The translations under genes were made by a program, and so were the position numbers. The notes under the pieces are model-generated. The model did no database searches, was not told the origin of the DNA, and saw only the letters and a list, made by a program, of their open reading frames with translations. From Octopus vulgaris (lineage: Eukaryota): 64,000 bases of DNA. Where the stretch lies: contig OX597828.1 in assembly GCA_951406725.2 (NCBI GenBank), positions 20,646,001 to 20,710,000 of the forward strand, read 5' to 3'. How positions within the stretch are numbered: position 1 is the stretch's first letter; every line of letters begins with the position of its first letter. Shown in pieces: positions 36,946-64,000 of this stretch.

Positions 36946-36999
36946 CTGTCTTCTCTCGAACATAATTAGATAGATAAACGGATAGACGGATTATCCAGC

Positions 37000-37911
37000 A
37001 TGTCCAGAGCATGGAGACGTGACGAGCTGGATTTATTCGTACGAGCATGGGAGTGCGCCGGCGGAGATAGCCCTAGCGAGGTGATTGCGGCTGCGCTGAA
37101 GAGCAGAGGCTACAAGAGGACAGCGGCTCAGATGGAGCGAAAGAGACAGGAATTCGTGCGCTCATATGCGCTTGTACAGTCGCACATTGGCGCACTTGAT
37201 GCCATCTTTGAGAACGAGCGGGGCAAAGATGGCAAGAATGGAGACGATGAAAGAAGTCACCCCCACCTGGTGGACGCCCAGGAGGAGGTTTTGAATGAGA
37301 AACCTGCCCGGGAAGTGAACCCAGGTGCAAGTTCTCCAACCGGCAGCAAGGGCCATGGAGACGGAGAACCCGGTGAAGAGGTAGAGGGAGGAAGAAGAAC
37401 TAAAAGAAGGACTGGAAGAGCTAAAGGAAAAGAAAAAGCTCAAGCAGGACCAAAGAGAGAAACAACCAGGAGTAGAAGTGGAACCGCAAAGGATGGAACC
37501 AAACAGCGCACACGGGTGTGTATGTTCTACCTGAGAGGTTCCTGCTGGCACGGAAAGGAAGGTGCAGGCTGCCGCTTTGCACATCGGGGACCCTGCCACA
37601 GAGACACGAGGCAGATGGACAAACCATCAACACAAAGAAAAGGGATGGACTACGCACCACCTGCCCCAAAGCGGAGGTACGCAGATGTTGTGCGCGCCAC
37701 AAACAGCCAACATGATGTTGTCGAAAGAGCAGCTGCTGAGCAACAATCTTTTTTGTGCATGGCACAAAAGATTGTACAGCAGCTGACCTGGCTTCATCAA
37801 ACCCAAGCCCGCAGGTGGGACTACCCACTATATACCAGACCACCACAGCAAACAGACACAGGATGGACACCGCCGGCAACAACGTACACCTCACCTCGAT
37901 ACTCCTACTGA
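37000..37911 (+). CDS. LINE ORF1 protein, 303 aa: Myb/SANT(trihelix)-like N-terminus, basic linker, CCCH zinc finger
   Basis: ATG in CCAGCATGT context. W-x3-E-x2-LF..W....IAAALKSRGYKRTAAQMERK...Y pattern; CMFYLRGSCWHGKEGAGCRFAH is C-x7-C-x8-C-x3-H; lies directly 5' of ORF2. Confidence 0.85.
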   Translation: MSRAWRRDELDLFVRAWECAGGDSPSEVIAAALKSRGYKRTAAQMERKRQEFVRSYALVQSHIGALDAIFENERGKDGKNGDDERSHPHLVDAQEEVLNEKPAREVNPGASSPTGSKGHGDGEPGEEVEGGRRTKRRTGRAKGKEKAQAGPKRETTRSRSGTAKDGTKQRTRVCMFYLRGSCWHGKEGAGCRFAHRGPCHRDTRQMDKPSTQRKGMDYAPPAPKRRYADVVRATNSQHDVVERAAAEQQSFLCMAQKIVQQLTWLHQTQARRWDYPLYTRPPQQTDTGWTPPATTYTSPRYSY

Positions 37912-40859
37912 ACATCAGAGGACTGCAAACACTCAGTAACAGGACAAAGATCCCGTTCCTGAGAGACTTTGTTGCATGCAATCAAGCCTTATGCATAGCA
38001 CTTACAGAAACGCACCTGAAACCGGACATAGCAGATGCGGAGTTACACATACCACAGTATGCTGTACTACGGACCGACAGGAAAGAAAGGAGTCATGGAG
38101 GTGTTGCTATGTACATCCGTGAGGACCTCACACCCCAGGTCCTCTTGTCATACTCAAACTCGGTGTGTGACACACTAATTGTACATATTAGGCAACTTGA
38201 TGTAGTTGTGTGTGCTACATATCGCCCTCCAGATGCCCCAAGCCATGTGGGCAAGTTTGAAGACTGCCTTATAAAAATAGAAGAAATTCTAACCACATTA
38301 GAACAACACATAGGTGTGCTTCTTATGGGAGACTTCAATCTGCCCAATGTCAGATGGCCCGAGGGCCTTTCTCTCCCAGGAATGACAAGATGTGAACGAG
38401 GACAGGCGAGGTCCCTCCTGAACCTCATCAACACCCTGTACATGGAGCAGGTAATACTCCAACCAACCAGGGCAGGTAACACACTGGATCTCTGCTTCAC
38501 AAATGACATGGATCTCATCCATAATGTGAAAGTGACACCGACACTACTCTCGGATCACAACATGATAGAGCTGACCATGTACGGGCCAAAAGAGAGCACG
38601 GACATGCAGCCTACAAGAAACCCTCAAAATCTTTCCAGCTTGAACTACCATAAGGCAAACTGGAAACAAATTGAGAAAGAGATCCTCAAACAAAACTGGC
38701 CTAAATGTCTCTCCTCGCCAGACATCGACGTGAAACTTCAACAATTCATGTCTGTAATGCAAGCCATATGCTACAAATGTGTCCCAGAGAGAAAGGCCAC
38801 TGTACACAAGAACAAAATCCCCAGAGAGAGGAAAATTTTAATGAGACGGCGTACGAAATTTTCAAATCGCCTAAACAAACAGATTGAAAGCAGTGAAAAG
38901 TCCCGCCTAAAAATAAAACTGTTGGAAATCGAAAAATGTCTGCAACTCTCCCATGAAAAAGAAAGAGCAGACAAAGAAGCCTGGGCTATAGAAAACATAA
39001 AATCTAACCCCAGAGCTTTCTACAGGTATGCCAAAGAAACAGCTACAGTGCACTGTAGAATAGGGCCACTCCTCGAAAAGGATGGCACACTTACAGGAAA
39101 ACCAATGAGGGTAAGTGAAATACTGAATGAGCAATTCAAGAGTGTTTTCACTCCACCCCTTGGGCATCTCCAAATCACCAATCCAACTGACTTTTTTACC
39201 ACTGCAGATATAAAATCAGAGGCGGCGACGATAGATTACATCGATATAAAGGAAGACGATGTAACCAAGGCTATAGATGAAATGAAAACAGACTCAGCTA
39301 CTGGCCCCGATGGATTCCCGGCAATCCTCCTAAAAGCATGTAAGAGAGTCCTAGCAAGACCACTGCAGTTCCTCTTTCAGAGCTTCCTTGCAGCTGGCAA
39401 ACTTCCAGGAAAACTGAAGGAAGGTAAAATATGCCCCATTCATAAAGGAGGTAGCAGAGCGGAAGCCAAGAACTATAGACCTATCTCTCTGACCTCACAC
39501 ATCAGCAAGGTCATGGAACGAATAGTCAGAAGGAAGCTGATCACCTTCCTTGAAGAGAATGACTTGCTGCCCGACACCCAACATGGTTTCCGACCAGGGA
39601 GAAGCTGTTTAACTCAGCTCCTACAACACTATGACTGGGTGCTGAAACGGGTGCTCAACCACTCAAATGTGGAAGTCATATATCTCGACTTTGCAAAGGC
39701 CTTTGATAAAGTCGATCATGGAATGATATGTCACAAACTGCGTGATCTCAACATAGTTGGAAAACTGGGAGAATGGCTTCATGACTTTCTGAAGGATAGA
39801 AGTCAGGTGGTAGTAGCCAATGGGGCCACCTCCATTAACACACAAATAGTGAGCGGTGTTCCGCAGGGCACTGTTCTGGGACCACTACTGTTCATAATGG
39901 CCCTCTCAGACATGCCCTCAGCCACGCAGAGAGCCACGATCACAAGTTATGCAGATGATACAAAAGTTTCACAGGCAATACAGAACCCTGAGGACACTAA
40001 ACACCTGCAATGTGAGCTGGACGAAATATACAAGTGGGCTGAAAAGAATAGCATGCAGTTCAATGCTGGAAAGTTTCAAGCTTTATACTATCAGCATGCA
40101 AAACTGAATGCAATACCCAATGAATACACTGGACCCGGAGGGATTGCAATCCCAGAGGCACAATCAGTGCGTGACCTGGGTATTCACATGAGTGATGACG
40201 CGACCTTTCATGTACATGTTGCTAAACTGACAATGAAATGTAGACGGCTGGCTGGCTGGATTCTTAGAACCTTTAGAACAAGAGAACAAGAAACCATGAT
40301 GGTCCTCTGGAAGACACTTGTCCTAAGCCACTTTGACTATTGCTCTCAGCTATGGTCACCATCCAGTGTCAAGTTGATCACAGAACTTGAGGCGATCCAA
40401 CGAAGCTACACAAAGAAGATAGCCTCTATGCAGAATGTAAGCTACTGGGAAAGACTCAAGAGATTAAAATTATATTCCCTGGAGCGTAGGCGGGAAAGAT
40501 ATGCCATAATATACATCTGGAAGATCCTGGAGGGAAGTGCCCTGAACTTTGGCATCGAGAGTTACGCAAATGCCAGAACTGGGCGCCACTGCGTGGTGCC
40601 TAGGACTCCAAACCTGCCATCAAGATGTAGGACAAGATTCTGTGATAGCCTGGGCTTCCGAGGCCCACAGCTCTTCAATATCCTCCCGAAGAACCTGAGA
40701 GACCTGCATGGGGTGGATACAGATGTCTTTAAAATGAAGCTGGATCTCTTCCTGTCAGGTGTCCCAGATGAACCAACTTCACGGCAGGAGGGGCAGATGA
40801 GGGCAGCTGCATCGAACTCTCTCATGCACCAAATAGCAGTTGCTAGAAAGCCTCCATGA
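37863..40859 (+). CDS. LINE ORF2: apurinic-like endonuclease plus reverse transcriptase, 998 aa from the first ATG
   Basis: APE motifs LNIRGL, LTETHL, YRPP, GDFN, TLDL, SDH. RT motifs [43 protein letters not shown]1-type C-terminus [10 protein letters not shown]. Frame is open from 37740; the track start at 37755 is GTG. Confidence 0.97.
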
Positions 40860-50632: not shown

Positions 50633-53600
50633 TAGTTTTATTTTTATAGCGTACTTTCACTTCACTACCGAGCGCAGCTCTGTGTGCCTTAGGTATGTGC
50701 TGTGATTTGTTGTGATGCTCTGATGGTTATTGTATGGAAGGTGTTCTGCGTAGGATGTGTGCAGTGCCTAGTAGTGCAATTTTCTCTATGTCATATGTGT
50801 TTGTAAGTCCTGGTGTTTTTGTTATGTATTTGTCTGAATATTTTTTTATCATGCCTAATGCACCTACTATGATAGGAATTGTTTCTGTTTTTAGATTCCA
50901 CATTCTGGTTACCTCTATTTTCAGGTCTTTGTATTTTGAGAGTTTTTCCATTTCTTTTAGAGACACGTTGTCATCTGCCGGTATTGATACATCAATTAGA
51001 AAGCATTTTTTCTTTATGATCTCTGGTCTGTTGGTCTTAATTTCTCTATCTGTGTGTATCGGCATATCCCAGAGTATGGTTGCTTTCTCGTTTTCCGTGA
51101 CCTTTTCTGGTGTGTGCCTATACCATCTTTTTTCTGTTGTTATTCCATAATGTTGGCATAGTTTCCAATGTATGTAGGTTCCAACTCCGTCATGTCTGTG
51201 AATATATTCCTTCTTAGCCAGGACTGGGCAGCTAGAGATAATATGATTTATTGTTTCTTGTCCATCTCCACATATTCTGCAGTTACTTGTTATATTTATT
51301 TTCATTACATGTTTTTGGTAATTTCTTGTGGGGAGGCTTTGGTCTTGTGCTACAATTAAAAATCCCTCTGTCTCTGATTTGAGTCCTGAGCTTCTCAACC
51401 ATTGCTGGGATTTTTCTTTGTCTATTTCTTTTGCGTTTAGTTTAGCCCAGTATTTACCATGAAAGGGCTTTTCTTGCCATCGTTTTATTATGGTTCGTTG
51501 CTGTTCTATTTTTAGTTTGGATTTCATTTGTTTTATAGCTTTTGTTGTTTCTTCATCTTCTTCTTCTTCTTCATATTTATTAGGTGGTATGATTTCTTGT
51601 TTGTATTTGTCAGCTTCCTTAAATACTGAGAACAGTTTTTTGTTTTGCTCGTGTTTTGCCGCTATTTGTATCAGTTTTCCTTCCTTCTGAAGTAGATATT
51701 TTTGCAGTCCTATGGTGGTTATTTTATAGTAGTTTTCCAGTTGTATAAGGCCTCTACCACCTTCAATACGTTGTATATATAGTCTTTCTATGTCAGATTT
51801 TGGGTGATGCATCCTAGATCCTGTCATTATTTTTCTTGTTTTCCTATCTATTTTGGTCAGTTCATTTAGTGTCCAATTAAGGATATTGTAGCTGTAACTT
51901 ATAACTGGGACAGCTAAAGTATTAATACCAATTATCTTGTTTTTAGCATTGAGCTCTGTTTTTAGTATTGATCTAACTCGTCTATAATATTCTTTTTTAT
52001 TTTCTCTTTCATTTGTGTGTGTTGTGTCTTATCTAGTTCATGGATTCCTAAGTATTTGTAAGTTTGGCTTTGGTCTAATTCTTTTATTTCATTGGTTTTA
52101 TCTAGTGTGATGTTGCTACTCTTAACTAGTTTTCCTCTTTTCATGGTTACTTTGGCGCATTTTTCTAATCCAAATTTCATATCTATTTCTTTGGTAAATC
52201 CATGAACTGTCTTTAATAGTGTTTCCAGCTGTTTGTCATTTGCAGCGTATAGTTTTAGGTCATCCATATATAAAAGGTGGCTGATCGTTTTGCCGTAACA
52301 TTTATATCCGCATCCAGTTCTATTTAGCATATCAGATAGAGGTGACAGTGCCAAGCAGAAAAGGAGTGGAGAGAGCGTGTCTCCTTGGAATATTCCTCTT
52401 CAAATGGGGATGTCTTTGGTTTTCAAGAGTCCCTCTTTTGTTTGGAGCTGTAGCACTGTTTGCCATTTATTCATAGAGTGCCCTATGAATTTTATGATTG
52501 TTGGTGCTACTTTGTTAATGGCTAGTGTTTCGAGGATCCATGTGTGGGGGATGCTATCAAACGCCTTTTTGTAGTCGATTCAGGCAATACTGAGGCCTTT
52601 CTTCTTTCTGTGGCTGTCTTCAGTTATGGCTTTATTAATCATTAGTTGATCTTTACAGCCATATGAGCCTTTGCGGCATCCTTTCTGCTCTTCTGGGAAC
52701 AGGTTGTTTTCGTCCAGGTGCTTGTTCAACCTTTGCAATATCACTGCAGTAAATGCCTTGTACATTGTAGGGAGACAGGTTATTGGTCTGTAGTTTTCTG
52801 GTTTTGCTGTCTCATTTGATTTGGGAATTAAGATGGTTTTCCCCTTCGTGAGCCATTCAGGCATTGTCTCTGGCTCTGCTAGTATGTTGTTAAAGTTTTC
52901 AGCCAGCTTTTTGTGCATTCCTGTTAGATATTTCAACCAGAAGTTGGGGATCTTGTCGTGCCCAGGTGCCTTCCAGTTGCTTAGTCTTTGCAGTGCCTGG
53001 GTGACCTCTTCAGTTGTTATGGGGGTCCAAAGTTGCTCAGATGCTGAGTTTGTTGTTTTGATACTCCTTTTATTTGGTTGTTCTTTCGCCGACCATATTT
53101 CTCTCCAGAATTCTTCCACTTCTTCTGCCGTTGGTGCTGCAGTGATTTCTATTTTATTTTTGCCAAGTTCTTGGTAGAACTTTTGGGGTTGGAGTTGAAC
53201 TTTTTGTTTTGTTCAAAGAAGCGCTGGCGTTTCTCGTACCGGCGGATCCTTTGTGCTTTGGCAAGGAAACCTTGCTTCAGCTTTTCTTTTATCTCAGGTA
53301 AATCTTTTTCTGTGATGTTATATTTGCGGAGTATTTTTGTTTTCTTATTGTTGCTCAGTAGCGTTGATTGTCTACTGATTTCATTAAGAATCGACAGATC
53401 TTTTCTCATTTTTAGTATTTTGTTTTGGATGTTATTTATCCACAGGGTTTGTTTAGGTGTTGGTACTCCTGTTTGGATGGGTTTGAGTGAGTATCCAGCT
53501 TCTTTTGTGGCTGCAGTGGCTGCTGCGTATACTAAGTCATTTAGCTCAGTGATATCGCTTTTTGTTTCAGTGGCTATTAGTTCCGTGACGGCTAGGTTTA

Positions 53601-54212
53601 TGCTGTTTATAATTGGTGTTGTTTTTCGTCTATTTTGATTCTTGGGAGGTATGGTCGGTGGTCCATTTTGAGCTCTGTGGTTTTCAGTTCTTTGATTATT
53701 TTACTTTTTATATTATCATAATCATTAGGCTCCCCTTCGTTGTTTCCAGGTTTTAGCTTTGTGTCGCTTTCTTTCTTATTTATATGTTTGTTTGCCGTGT
53801 TTTGGCTTGCTGTTTGTCGTGTATTATTATGCATCCTTACGGTCTGGGTTTGTTGTTTTTTTGTTTACATCGTGTTTGTTGGGAATGTTACGTTTGTCTT
53901 CGTGTTTTACTGCTTCAGTGTTTATATTATTGGGCATTGTTGTGTGGCTTCTATCTACATTTTCCTGGTGTATTTTTTCTTTTAGATGTTCTATTTCTAT
54001 TTCTGATATTTTTTTGCGTTGAGAATGTATCTTCGTACGTTAGCTAATTTATTAGGGTTCATTGCTGTATCCAAGTCTATATTTATGTTATTTTCCTTCC
54101 ATATTTTATATGTATGTGTTGTTGTGTTTTCATTTTTTGGGTAGAGCACTGCTGTGAAGTATGCGTGTAAGATAGAAATGTATTCCTCACGTGTCCATTT
54201 ATGTCTTTTGGG

Positions 54213-58705: not shown

Positions 58706-59549
58706 ACATATACATTATCGAGTAGTTATTGCGCCTGAAGGGTCTACGATTCCGTACCAATGCTCTTATCAGCAATGCATATATTTCTCCCCGTCCCTTT
58801 TTCTCTCTTTCTCTCTCACTCACTCTCTTTCTTCGTCACTGTCTCATCTCTCCTCTTTTCATATTCTTTTCCTCCCTCGACCGCCATGTTTTCTTTTTCT
58901 TTTTCTCTCACCAACACAGCCAACACTTGGATAATCTCACCATTCAATTACTGACTGTAAAGACGTTTATGCATTCAACCCGCTAAGAACGGAAGATAAG
59001 AACAAGGCTTTAATCTCCTAGCCAAACTAAACTCTCAATGCTTCATTTTCTTCCTCACTTAACTTTATTCTATACAAAACTCATAAATAGACTTTCATTA
59101 TGGAAACATTTATAATATTACATGTTTTATATCCCAACAGAAATAAAGATATTTTTTTATTCTCTTCTAACATTAAATACTGTATTTAGCTACAACAATA
59201 CGATAATGAAAAGAGTAATGCTGAAAAATAAAAGTATTTTAAATATTTGTAATTCTTTTAAATTTAAACTAGAAGTTTCAGCTCTTCAAATATACAATAT
59301 TTCTGATAATGAATAGATTTCGAAGCGATCGTCTGCATACGGTAGCAAAGGAGAATACATATAAGAACGGTAATCTTATACAAGATTTTGTTGTCTCGAT
59401 ATCATTTCGAGAGCCACGTTTTCAGTCCGATAACTATGGAACGGCGTCGGTGACATAATCGAAACTTTTAACGCGAAGAAACAATATTTACGAATATCGA
59501 TAAACACATCCACCAATATAGAAATATGGCCATTTATAAAATGTTGAAA

Positions 59550-59962
59550 TTTCCCCATGTGCTTGATGTAGCTGTTTGTTGTTCGAAGCCACCCTGTGAT
59601 TGGATAGTGACCCACTAGTCTTCCCATATCGAAAATAGTTCTCGTTTGTTGACGCTGGGATCCAGTTCCGGAATCTCATTCCCTCTCTGGAACACCAACA
59701 CACTTGTTTTATCTCTTTGAAGCGTGAGCCCTAATGCAGCTCCTCCAAACATTGGCCCCGGTGGTTTCGCAGTCAGCCTGCACTTCTTTAGGTGACCTAT
59801 GACCTCTGCGGCAGACACTACAGTTTCGTCTCCCAGGATGTCGTCTATATAGAAATTGGAGACCTTTTTTTACCTTGTTCACCTTTCCCAGGATGGATAT
59901 TAACATCTTTGCCGTGATCTTTGGTGCAGAATTCAGCCCGAAACCCAGCCTAGTCAAGTCAA
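59550..59962 (-). mobile_element. LTR-retrotransposon reverse transcriptase fragment (Gypsy-like)
   Basis: Stitched minus frames read [14 protein letters not shown]...NFYIDDILGDETVVSAAEVIGHLKK...RELFSI..RLVGHYPITGWLR; FGL-x-x-AP and YIDD are LTR-type RT motifs. Confidence 0.8.
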
Positions 59963-61420: not shown

Positions 61421-61651
61421 GGGGTATACTCTTTTACTTTTTTACTTGTTTCAGTTATTTGACTGTGGCCATGCTGGAGCACCGCCTTTAGTCGAGCAAA
61501 TCGACCCCAGAACTTATTCTTTGTTAGCCTAGTACTTATTCTATCAATCTTTTTTGCCGAACCGCTAAGTTACGGGGATGTAAACACACCAGCATCGGTT
61601 GTCAAGCGATGTTGGGGGGACAAACACAGACACACAAACATACACATACAC

Positions 61652-61707
<56 letters not shown>

Positions 61708-61713
<6 letters not shown>

Positions 61714-62109
61714 AAATATAACGAATGGTCATAATAGGACATTCGACTCACTAGAAAGAGCAGCCAAACTCGTGGATATATGTTCGTCCTTGGCTTCTCT
61801 GCTGACGAGGCACGCCAGTTGTAAACAAATTTAATTTAATTTAATTAATTTGTTTACTAAAGTTTGCCGAAACTATGCATAGTCCAGAGATGAAAGGGTA
61901 AACGTTTTTATTTCTCTTTCAATTTCAGAATTACAACTATTAGCGGTTTGAGTTTGGCTGCTCTTTCTAGTGAGTCGAATGTCCTATTATGGCCATTCCT
62001 TATATTTTTGAATGTATATCATATAGTCTTTGACTATCTTTTCTTTCTCACTGGACAGCTGGTAGCGGAGAATTTTTTCTAGAATTTTTTACTACCCTTA
62101 TATTTATTA

Positions 62110-62110
<1 letters not shown>
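61708..62110 (+). mobile_element. Penelope-like terminal fragment with 64-bp inverted arms enclosing a hammerhead
   Basis: 61708-61771 is the reverse complement of 61950-62013 with 2 mismatches; (TA)n on the left. Confidence 0.8.
61796..61890 (+). ncRNA. Type I hammerhead ribozyme (Penelope-type, palindromic loop 3)
   Basis: TCTCTG-CTGACGA-GGCA..long hairpin..TGCC-GAAAC-TATGCATA-GTC-CAGAGA: 6-bp stem I, complete core, G-C closed stem II, GUC triplet. Confidence 0.85.
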
Positions 62111-62169
<59 letters not shown>

Positions 62170-63404
62170 TATATGCATATATACGACGGGCTTCTTTCTG
62201 TTTCCGTCTACCAAATCCCCTCACAAGGCTTTGGTCGGCCCGAGGCTATAGTAGAAGATACTTGCCCAAGGTGCCACGCAGTGGGACTGAACCCGGAACC
62301 ATGTGATTCGTAAGCAAGCTACTTACCACACAGCTACTCCTTCGCCTAATTATTGTGTAAATTCAACTGGACATTCAGAAAATTAGCAACACTAAGATTA
62401 GTAACAACCATTATTCATTAGATTTAATCATTTAAATGTATCCATAACACTTTTCTAAGTGTATCTAATTCTTATTTATCCTTTATATTAAGAGAGATTA
62501 TTAAACCATCTTCTGGTAGAAACCAAGCTAAAATGCAGAGGATATTTAGTTTTGAAAGCTTAGAATAGAAATCTTATAATTTAAGATAATTCTGCTCCAT
62601 CACAGAGACACTCATCGGCGTTCTTTTCAATCCAAAATTATTTGTCAATAAATAGATTTCCGCCTGCATATAATAATCATATCAGATTCTCTGATTAAAA
62701 CAAAATTACAAACAAAAGACAAAGAATTTTAAAGCGTTTATTCATTATAGAGGGACGAAATTCTATTATATCAGGTTTTCGAAATTTTCAATGATATTTA
62801 TTATTAATAGCATAGAACCACATCATGGCGGAAACACTATCATTCGATAATGGATGAGAATTTAGTTGTAAATCTTATGAATAATAGAATTTAGAGCGTT
62901 GTTGCTGACTATACTTCTTCATTCATTTTACCTTACATTTTTGACTACATAAAAATAATTGGTCTTATCTTTTAATTCAACCTAAATATTTTATTCTCTT
63001 ATCCATTTCAAAATTAGTAGCTATTCTTTGACTTCTAGATTTAAAGAATTGTGTTGTTTGTCAGCAGATTCTTTGAGAAGTTTGTTTTATTCTTTATTTA
63101 TTTACTTATTTGTAAAAGTTTGCGATATTACCGTACAATAATCCTTACAATGTGTGCCATTCGTTGTAAATACAATTTTCGTGTTGTCCGATGAATTGAA
63201 TTCTTTAGTGTTTTGCAACATTTTTCGAAACTCTTAAAGAATTTCTAAAGTTATTTTAAATATTTTAAAACTTATTTCTTAAGCAAACTTTTTTTTTTAA
63301 TATCAGATCTGTTTCGCATTGTTTTCTGATACTAATTTCCTCTTTCTGAATCTAAAACGAAGAGGCATTGCTGTTGGTTTTGTTAAAAAAAAAAGTCTTC
63401 CAAA

Positions 63405-64000
63405 GGCGGCGAGCTGGCAGAAACGTTAGCACGCCGGGCGAAATGCTCAGCGGTATTTCGTCTGCCGTTACGTTCCGAGTTCAAATTCCACCGAGGTCGA
63501 CTTTGCCTTTCATCCTTTCGGGGTCGATTAAATAAGTACCAGTTACGCACTGGGGTCGATGTAATCGACTTAATCCGTTTGTCTGTCCTTGTTTGTCCCC
63601 TCTGTGTTTAGCCCCTTGTGGGTAGTAAAGAAATAGGCATTTCGTCTGCCGTTACGTTCTGAGTTCAAATTCCGCCGTGGTTGATTTTGCCTTTCATCCT
63701 TTCGGGGTCGATTAAATAAGTACCAGTTACGCATTGGGGTCGATATAATCGACTTAATCCGTTTGTCTGTCCTTGTTTGTCCTCTCTGTGTTTAGCCCCA
63801 TGTGGGTAGTAAAGAAATAGGTATTTCGTCTGCCGTTACGTTCTGAGTTCAAATTCCGCCGTGGTCGATTTTGCCTTTCATCCTTTCGGGGTCGATAAAT
63901 TAAGTACCAGTTACGCAATGGAGTCGATGTAATCGACTTAATCCGTTTGTCTGTCCTTGTTTGTCCCCTCTATGTTTAACCCCTTGTGGGCAATAAAGAA
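63405..64000 (+). mobile_element. SINE family B tandem multimer (head plus at least 3 x 184-bp units)
   Basis: Units begin at 63452, 63636 and 63820 with the junction AAAGAAATA|GG(T/C)ATTTCGTC; runs off the window end. Confidence 0.93.

What the first reader, a model, noticed from the sequence alone, without database searches (positions are those of the whole stretch)
61708..62110. Complete hammerhead with ~60-nt extended stem II, enclosed by inverted arms and nested in a SINE
Seen: all core nucleotides are present; stem I TCTCTG/CAGAGA; stem II GGCA/TGCC extended by an inner GTAAACAAATT/AATTTGTTTAC hairpin; stem III is only 2 bp with palindromic loop TATGCATA. Established: short stem III with a palindromic loop characterises Penelope and retrozyme hammerheads that cleave as dimers. 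The long stem II and flanking 64-bp inverted arms are unusual. Predicted cleavage is after C61884. If this lies in an intron transcribed on plus, it could cut host pre-mRNA (inference).
Basis: partly seen in the sequence, partly recalled or inferred. Interest (0 to 1): 0.72.

Follow-up and report, generated by a model that had tools for sequence, protein, structure and literature searches.

The report
Truncated long-armed hammerhead retrozyme copy
This is one shortened copy of a 468-base protein-free repeat that carries a hammerhead motif (predicted to cut its own RNA) with an unusually long side arm; its mirror-image flank and its place inside another repeat are likely by-products of being pasted into a TA stretch by a Penelope-type retrotransposon enzyme, not a device for cutting a host gene.

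Summary
The hammerhead is real: intact core at 61796-61890, 60-nt stem II, predicted cut after C61884. It lies in a 5'-truncated copy of a dispersed 468-nt non-coding family (131 exact 24-mer hits). A 71%-identical sister family keeps all 14 core-flanking pairs, 8 by double changes, so the fold is likely selected. Stem III can form 4 bp, not only 2, but is marginal alone (+0.4 kcal/mol; dimer duplex -15.9). The 'enclosing arms' are not part of the unit: 72 of 123 sampled insertions carry an inverted second arm of varying length. Outer ends fall at two fixed points 98 nt apart, one per arm in 45 of 48 classifiable cases. That is the Penelope 'inverted copy plus tail' footprint. The SINE merely supplied a (TA)n target (4 of 123). 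Long stem II is the rule here (9 of 11 motif types) and Rfam misses it. Cleavage, circles, a host gene and the autonomous partner were not shown. The scan already noted the sister family and similar elements in other genomes; this 468-nt family gave no earlier match.

The parts
61425..61678 (-). 3' half of a host SINE, split at its internal microsatellite
   Evidence: 89% over 256 nt to positions 172-427 of an intact copy, L008:1011-1440
61662..61709 (.). (TA)n target, left side
   Evidence: sequence; 154 of 160 outer ends at the two fixed points abut TA/TTA runs
61708..61771 (-). inverted second arm, starting at fixed end E1; copy of 61950-62013; joined to the main arm over 3 shared letters (61769-61771)
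   Evidence: 2 mismatches in 64; arm length differs between insertions
61769..62110 (+). main arm: last 342 nt of the 468-nt monomer (first 126 nt missing), ending at fixed end E2
   Evidence: 93-97% to the best genome matches; monomer length from a real tandem, L009
61783..61788 (+). segment predicted to pair with the catalytic core and block it
   Evidence: minimum-energy folds; prediction only, not seen in the sister family's fold
61796..61890 (+). type I hammerhead: stem I 6 bp, core 61802-61808 and 61869-61872, predicted cut after C61884
   Evidence: core intact in 27 of 30 aligned copies; 14 of 14 core-flanking pairs kept in the sister family
61809..61868 (+). 60-nt stem II: 4-bp base, internal loops, A/U-rich inner hairpin 61821-61857
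   Evidence: sister family has a 67-nt version with the same apical loop and different paired letters
61872..61883 (+). stem III, 12-nt palindrome; 4-bp hairpin +0.4 kcal/mol, intermolecular duplex -15.9 kcal/mol
61970..62013 (+). hairpin plus CCTTATATT box ending at E1 (about 62012-62013), likely first reverse-transcription start
   Evidence: 72 of 195 outer ends; end position and folds; direct repeat D8 with the E2 box at 98-nt spacing
62014..62110 (+). 98-nt 'tail' between E1 and E2, with hairpin 62061-62096 plus a second CCTTATATT box; E2 is the likely second start
   Evidence: 88 of 195 outer ends; hairpin kept in the sister family with changed letters
62111..62175 (.). (TTA)n then (TA)n, right side of the target; the TTA run is likely a local expansion
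   Evidence: sequence; most copies go directly into (TA)n
62160..62348 (-). 5' half (head) of the host SINE
   Evidence: 93% over 189 nt to positions 7-195 of L008:1011-1440; ARAGORN finds no tRNA; tRNA-derived origin is recalled, not tested

Best explanation
The locus is a 5'-truncated, two-armed genomic copy of a 468-nt non-coding repeat family with a long-stem-II type I hammerhead, likely a non-autonomous retrozyme that was likely copied into the (TA)n of a SINE by a Penelope-like element's RT/GIY-YIG enzyme. Shown: family, tandem monomers, two fixed ends 98 nt apart, one per arm, TA targets, compensatory pairs against a sister family. Inferred cycle: tandem source copies are transcribed; hammerheads (best as pairs, through the palindromic stem III) cut out monomers, which may be circularised; the Penelope enzyme nicks both strands of (TA)n; one strand primes cDNA at E1 and the other at E2, each just 3' of a hairpin plus CCTTATATT box; both run the same way along the RNA, stop at variable points and are joined head to head, which gives the inverted arm on one side and the tail on the other. 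This copy has one hammerhead, lacks 126 nt of the monomer, and is likely inert.
For: Family: 157 matches from 40 scored of 2175 candidates; 131 and 146 exact 24-mer hits, reversed controls 0. Ends: of 123 distinct insertions, 72 two-armed; 45 E1+E2, 3 E2+E2, 0 E1+E1, 24 with an unclassifiable end; TA/TTA next to 69 of 72 E1 and 85 of 88 E2 ends. Template longer than a cut-to-cut linear monomer: 65 of 106 anchored runs pass the cut site, 29 of 106 pass the monomer junction; 7 of 123 insertions hold two same-strand hammerheads. Fold: 8 double, 1 single (G-U), 5 unchanged, 0 broken of 14 pairs against the 491-nt sister family; 100% paired versus 30-46% for slid controls on 11 pairs. Enzyme source present: RT + C-terminal GIY-YIG frames of 725-781 aa with a CxxxxCxxC linker, ending at (TA)n, some copies with tails. 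Literature: inverted copy and tail are standard (PMC8557442); both strands are extended from two internal starts that bound the tail (PMC11167929); retrozymes make circles and are proposed PLE passengers (PMC7229834; 10.64898/2026.07.22.740005).
Against: No autonomous element sharing DNA with the monomer was found among the GIY-YIG loci examined; their tails look 35-50 nt (read by eye) against 98 here. No pile-up of copy ends at the predicted cut (1 of 106 at 240-246). The covariation rests on two lineages only. Within the family the core is only slightly better kept than its flanks (3/330 vs 14/810 deviations; stem II base 10/240), as expected of neutrally decaying copies. The circular monomer folds only modestly better than shuffles (z -2.2; its reverse complement -1.9). 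The insertion sample is enriched for long, hammerhead-bearing copies. In one published test 8 of 9 predicted retrozyme dimers did not cleave, and hammerhead cleavage was dispensable for PLE insertion in vitro.
Confidence: 0.8

Rival explanations
1. The copies are 3' fragments (pLTR plus tail) of an autonomous Penelope-like element not yet found, not an independent retrozyme.
For: Same footprint as autonomous PLEs; PLE copies are mostly 5'-truncated (PMC8557442). My GIY-YIG search scored only 150 of 6136 candidates and may miss Hydra-type endonucleases.
Against: Wherever copies extend beyond one monomer they continue into another monomer (46 of 145 runs cross the junction); in the 30 + 50 maps read I saw none running into shared non-monomer sequence; the sister family forms trimers and longer with no coding frame among the frames of 150 aa or more.
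Confidence: 0.08
2. Same element, but the template is an uncleaved linear multimer and the hammerhead is a passenger that rarely cuts.
For: No end pile-up at the cut site; PAc inserts from unprocessed RNA and its hammerhead needs protein (PMC11167929); active fold predicted 3.7 kcal/mol above the ensemble even in a full monomer.
Against: Eight compensated pairs and an invariant core across 29% divergence imply selection on the ribozyme; 5' ends are 2.7-fold denser just 3' of the cut (242-289) than just 5' of it (170-241), p=0.005 for a window chosen after seeing the data, though a hairpin there could explain it. This rival differs from the best reading only in the template; I put circle versus linear multimer at about 55:45.
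Confidence: 0.3
3. A miniature inverted-repeat DNA transposon, or a host regulatory hairpin that cages a ribozyme to cut a plus-strand pre-mRNA.
For: 70-nt near-perfect inverted arms; whole region folds at z -16.
Against: Arms are asymmetric (element continues 97 nt past the right arm), vary in length between insertions and are absent in 51 of 123; no host exon recognised; no second same-family hammerhead nearby; copy is an ordinary 96% member.
Confidence: 0.05

Closest known systems
Metazoan non-LTR retrozymes (Cervera and de la Pena 2020, PMC7229834; Li, Clavereau and Pollet 2026, 10.64898/2026.07.22.740005)
   Same: Non-coding, 35% GC, canonical-core type I hammerhead, head-to-tail monomers, dispersed monomers and dimers, co-occurring autonomous PLEs.
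   Different: Monomer 468 nt (150-450 in the 2020 paper; 51-972 in the preprint); 60-nt stem II instead of a short capped helix; strict two-armed TA insertions, which the parts I read do not describe; expression, cleavage and circles not shown here.
Penelope-like elements: inverted 5' copy, partial tandems, tail, (TA)n bias (Craig et al. 2021, PMC8557442); two internal RT starts of PAc (Frangieh et al. 2024, PMC11167929)
   Same: Inverted truncated arm, two fixed ends bounding an optional tail, microsatellite target.
   Different: No ORF; tail 98 nt rather than 30-40; canonical rather than minimal hammerhead; here each arm nearly always takes a different start (45 of 48), whereas the PAc assay saw no difference in start site between strands.
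Canonical metazoan type I hammerhead (Cervera and de la Pena 2014, PMC4209133)
   Same: Helix I 6 bp, helix II base 4 bp, intact core, palindromic helix III suited to dimer cleavage.
   Different: Helix III up to 4 bp rather than 1-2; helix II extended to 60 nt, so the usual loop 1-loop 2 contact cannot be read off; no Rfam model matches.
491-493-nt sister retrozyme family in the same genome (earlier scan notes; loci L233-L252)
   Same: 71% identity over the whole monomer, same two ends, same hairpins.
   Different: Sister is younger (long matches mostly 95-99%) with longer arrays; this family is 85-97% and mostly one monomer or less.

Membership tests
Type I hammerhead ribozyme | Conserved core CUGANGA / GAAA / UH with three stems, helix I open | tested here: met
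   (27 of 30 copies with intact core)
Type I hammerhead ribozyme | Stems supported by covariation | tested here: met
   8 of 14 pairs changed on both sides, none broken, two lineages only
Type I hammerhead ribozyme | Match to a curated Rfam hammerhead model | tested here: not met
   long stem II is the likely reason (inference)
Type I hammerhead ribozyme | Self-cleavage at the predicted site | not testable with these tools
   needs in vitro assay; copy-end proxy inconclusive
Non-LTR retrozyme | Short non-coding low-GC monomer with one type I hammerhead | tested here: met
   468 nt, 35% GC
Non-LTR retrozyme | Tandem copies with hammerheads in consecutive units | tested here: met
   family level: 7 of 123 insertions; this locus has one hammerhead and would count as a monomer derivative
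Non-LTR retrozyme | Expressed as linear and circular monomer RNA | tested here: inconclusive
   only assembled contigs of runs guessed to be RNA were available; they hold fragments but cannot show ends, strand or circles
PLE-mobilised element | Inverted 5'-truncated copy, partial tandems, optional tail, microsatellite target | tested here: met
PLE-mobilised element | Sequence shared with the pLTR of an autonomous PLE | tested here: inconclusive
   none in the GIY-YIG loci fetched, a small part of 6136 candidates; Hydra-type elements not searched
Autonomous Penelope-like element | ORF with RT and GIY-YIG endonuclease | tested here: not met
   no such frame at the locus; copies continue into further monomers
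MITE / DNA transposon | Fixed terminal inverted repeats at both ends | tested here: not met
   arm length variable, absent in 51 of 123, right arm internal

The most novel reading that the evidence does not exclude
This genome holds a radiation of retrozymes with a distinct long-stem-II hammerhead class that standard models miss, all carrying a duplicated 'hairpin + CCTTATATT-like box' signal that places two Penelope RT molecules on one RNA circle, one per cut DNA strand and each at its own start; the 468/491 pair gives a covariation-defined map of that signal, and the excess of 5' ends in the upstream tail marks where an RT coming round the circle meets the protein-bound tail.
Probability: 0.3. 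Interest if true: 0.7.

Novelty: new variant of a known kind. Interest (0 to 1): 0.43.

Why it matters
The locus itself is an ordinary, likely inert copy. The family matters in two ways. First, the long-stem-II hammerheads are invisible to Rfam and to descriptors with a 7-17-nt spacer (as used in PMC8557442), so ribozyme counts in such genomes are likely too low; the sister-family covariation gives a ready template for testing whether the long arm supplies a new tertiary contact. Second, how Penelope-like elements make inverted copies and tails, and which enzyme moves animal retrozymes, are open questions in the papers read; the one-start-per-arm rule (45 of 48) and the duplicated hairpin-plus-box signal make both directly testable with a short RNA and a locally encoded enzyme.

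Tried and rejected
Rfam: nothing at gathering score, only chance hits at E<=5. Parent search: GIY-YIG family search (150 of 6136 scored) and a protein search (150 of 17320 scored) gave several young PLE families; none of the 52 loci compared (L031-L053, L056-L075 less overlaps, L088-L107) shared DNA with the monomer, except a 74-nt piece beside L033. That lead failed: L033's family stops before the piece, which belongs to the non-coding sister family. A shared 17-nt motif (21,709 hits, control 2) led to more non-coding families and an unrelated repeat context, no coding parent in 30 loci. A second Pfam family could not be searched. RNA: no RNA holder listed on record; contigs of 4 runs guessed as RNA hold fragments only. 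Splice joints across the locus were not obtained, so intron status and strand stay open. Host exons: 150 of 448 frames scanned, none convincing; short exons would be missed. Cut-site footprint: 1 of 106 ends at the site, broader excess 3' of it, inconclusive. My first idea, that both ends are set by pairing of TA-rich RNA with the target, was dropped: the sister family shares only about 2 letters with the target at E1. The first SINE-splitting count (0 of 123) had a threshold error that missed this locus; corrected count 4 of 123, a lower bound. Literature: 'long stem II', 'extended helix II', 'large loop 2' had 0 occurrences in the 15 papers listed of 24; 'octopus' or 'cephalopod' with 'hammerhead ribozyme' listed 1 and 2 papers, none on such retrozymes by title and abstract start. 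Supplements were not read: File S1 of PMC8557442 ('HHR_half_core' cases with 35-50-nt spacing) and the supplementary figures of PMC7229834 and PMC4209133 may already show long-stem-II motifs; the preprint's are closed.

Full report
Observation. The type I hammerhead spans 61796-61890 with an intact core, 60 nt between the core halves and a predicted cut after C61884. It is the only hit of my descriptor in the window; 100 simulated windows gave 0.04 hits each and none of this quality. The 95-nt motif folds better than all 200 shuffles (z -3.6). Rfam has no match. Stem III sits in a 12-nt palindrome and can form 4 bp; that hairpin costs +0.4 kcal/mol (2-bp form +2.8), while two copies pair at -15.9, so the dimer reading stands although the '2 bp' description is too short. 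The inverted arms differ at 2 of 64 letters. The two halves of one SINE flank the insert collinearly on the minus strand.

The family. The window lies in a 2.8-Gb genome; its SINE resembles octopus SINEs as I recall them, and earlier scan notes call the genome cephalopod; neither was tested. The best matches cover query 62-403 (61769-62110) at 93-97%; 2175 candidates, 40 scored. Two exact 24-mers occur 131 and 146 times, controls 0. A real tandem (L009) gives a 468-nt monomer; the window copy lacks its first 126 nt. Of 123 distinct insertions, drawn from the 30 best matches, 50 hammerhead-pattern loci and 66 loci of a downstream pattern (so enriched for long copies), 72 have two back-to-back arms and 51 one arm. 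Outer ends fall at E1 (72), E2 (88) or elsewhere (35). E1 maps to about 62012-62013 and E2 to 62110, 98 nt apart, each after a predicted hairpin and a CCTTATATT box. TA or TTA runs follow 69 of 72 E1 and 85 of 88 E2 ends, but only 14 of 35 others. Among two-armed insertions, 45 pair E1 with E2, 3 E2 with E2, none E1 with E1, and 24 have an unclassifiable end. The window copy is the common type: a short E1 arm inverted, a long E2 arm. I had the two ends; the pairing test followed my reading of earlier scan notes on the sister family. This SINE is split in 4 of 123 insertions, so it is an occasional target that happens to carry (TA)n.

Template. In 106 runs anchored on the downstream 24-mer, 65 extend 5' past the predicted cut and 29 past the monomer junction; the longest run seen is two monomers; 7 of 123 insertions carry two same-strand hammerheads. 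A linear monomer cut at both ends cannot template these, so the RNA was a circle or an uncut multimer. Only 1 run ends at the cut itself. Ends are denser in the 48 nt 3' of it (26 stops, 0.0069 per nt) than in the 72 nt 5' of it (11 stops, 0.0026; p=0.005, window chosen afterwards); a hairpin lies there too, so this is inconclusive. A second excess lies in the upstream monomer's tail (hazard 0.011-0.017 per nt from -70 to -11), which fits a hairpin, TA-like microhomology or bound protein.

Is the ribozyme selected? Within the family the copies decay nearly neutrally: deviations are 3/330 in the core, 8/360 in stem I, 10/240 in the stem II base, 1/180 in stem III, 48/1549 in the long arm, 14/810 in flanks; 27 of 30 cores are intact. 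The better test is a sister family found through a 74-nt shared piece: about 491 nt, 71% identical over 459 aligned columns, with arrays of three or more units. Anchored on the core, 8 of 14 pairs change on both sides, 1 becomes G-U, 5 are unchanged and none breaks; on the 11 pairs that the alignment keeps in register all cells pair, against 30-46% for slid controls. The long arm is also kept, at 67 nt, with the same apical loop. This is two lineages, not many. Among canonical-core motifs met in the fetched loci, grouped by eye into 11 credible types (three doubtful rows left out), 9 have 26-68 nt in stem II and 2 have 10-12. One lies 1.3 kb beyond the window end as an inverted pair. The long arm is therefore the local norm.

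This copy. Forcing the active fold costs 2.6-3.0 kcal/mol for the isolated motif, 3.7 in a full monomer, 7.1 in this copy without its arm and 8.6 with it; the competitor pairs 61783-61788 with the core. There is no second same-family hammerhead nearby for cis dimerisation. The 150 longest of 448 frames show LINE-type RT pieces and weak hits only. Contigs from four runs guessed to be RNA hold family fragments but cannot show strand or ends. Cutting of a host transcript is possible in principle and has no support.

Enzyme. The genome has young RT + C-terminal GIY-YIG elements (781-, 753-, 776-, 725-aa frames) with a cysteine linker, ending at (TA)n, some with short tails. By the description in PMC8557442 such a linker marks Neptune/Nematis-type elements; I built no tree. 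None of those examined shares DNA with the monomer. A 17-nt motif about 60 nt before E1 occurs 21,709 times; in 30 loci it marked several further non-coding families with the same hairpin-then-box ending, an unrelated repeat context, and no coding element. The partner remains unnamed.

Comparison. What I saw of each paper: PMC7229834 passages and parts 2-4 of 6; 10.64898/2026.07.22.740005 parts 1-3 of 5; PMC8557442 passages; PMC4209133 part 1 of 4; PMC11167929 passages and the second half of its main text; all others as listings only; no supplements. Together they describe tandem type I hammerhead repeats that give circles, their proposed dependence on PLEs, the inverted 5' copy and tail of PLEs, and two internal RT starts used on both DNA strands. 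The element works like a PLE passenger and meets the sequence-level tests of a non-LTR retrozyme; expression, cleavage and a shared pLTR are not shown. What I did not find in print is a 60-nt stem II class or the one-start-per-arm rule; the scan's own notes report both for other families.

Verdict. Real hammerhead, correct class, but arms and nesting are integration by-products. New variant of a known kind; interest 0.43. Confidence 0.8 in the PLE-mobilised retrozyme reading, about 0.55 that the template is a circle, about 0.05 for a host-gene role of this copy.

Noticed in passing
window 63393-64000: Another SINE-type repeat whose 3' part is triplicated head to tail: three 184-nt units at 93-95% (D2/D4).
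   Followed up: no
window 37740-40856 (+): Open 1039-aa frame with endonuclease and RT domains, preceded by a 313-aa frame at 36970-37908: a near-intact LINE.
   Followed up: no
window 50730-53700 (-): Broken LINE with RT and zf-RVT pieces in several frames.
   Followed up: no
L054:1000-1500 (1.0-1.5 kb beyond the window end): Inverted pair of a different hammerhead family (54-nt stem II, 8-nt palindromic stem III) between TA runs.
   Followed up: partly
L046-L051, L090-L092: Young Penelope-like families with many open 781-aa and 753-aa RT/GIY-YIG frames; the 781-aa family has an upstream 330-480-aa frame and a hammerhead-like motif with a U3/A8-type core near its 3' end (read by eye).
   Followed up: partly
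L254-L283: A 17-nt motif shared by several non-coding TA-inserted families about 60-73 nt before their first end; 21,709 genomic hits, some in an unrelated repeat.
   Followed up: partly
L009:1425-1475 (monomer part absent from the window copy): Read by eye, a possible degenerate second hammerhead-like arrangement (variant core, weak stems) in the first 100 nt of the monomer; the sister family differs there, so likely chance.
   Followed up: no
L259/L260, L265/L266, L279: Diverged subfamilies of the 468-nt family with a perfectly paired hairpin before E1 and different loop letters.
   Followed up: partly
window 59379-59675 (-): Short match to DUF7047 above the Pfam cut-off, probably a transposon fragment.
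   Followed up: no
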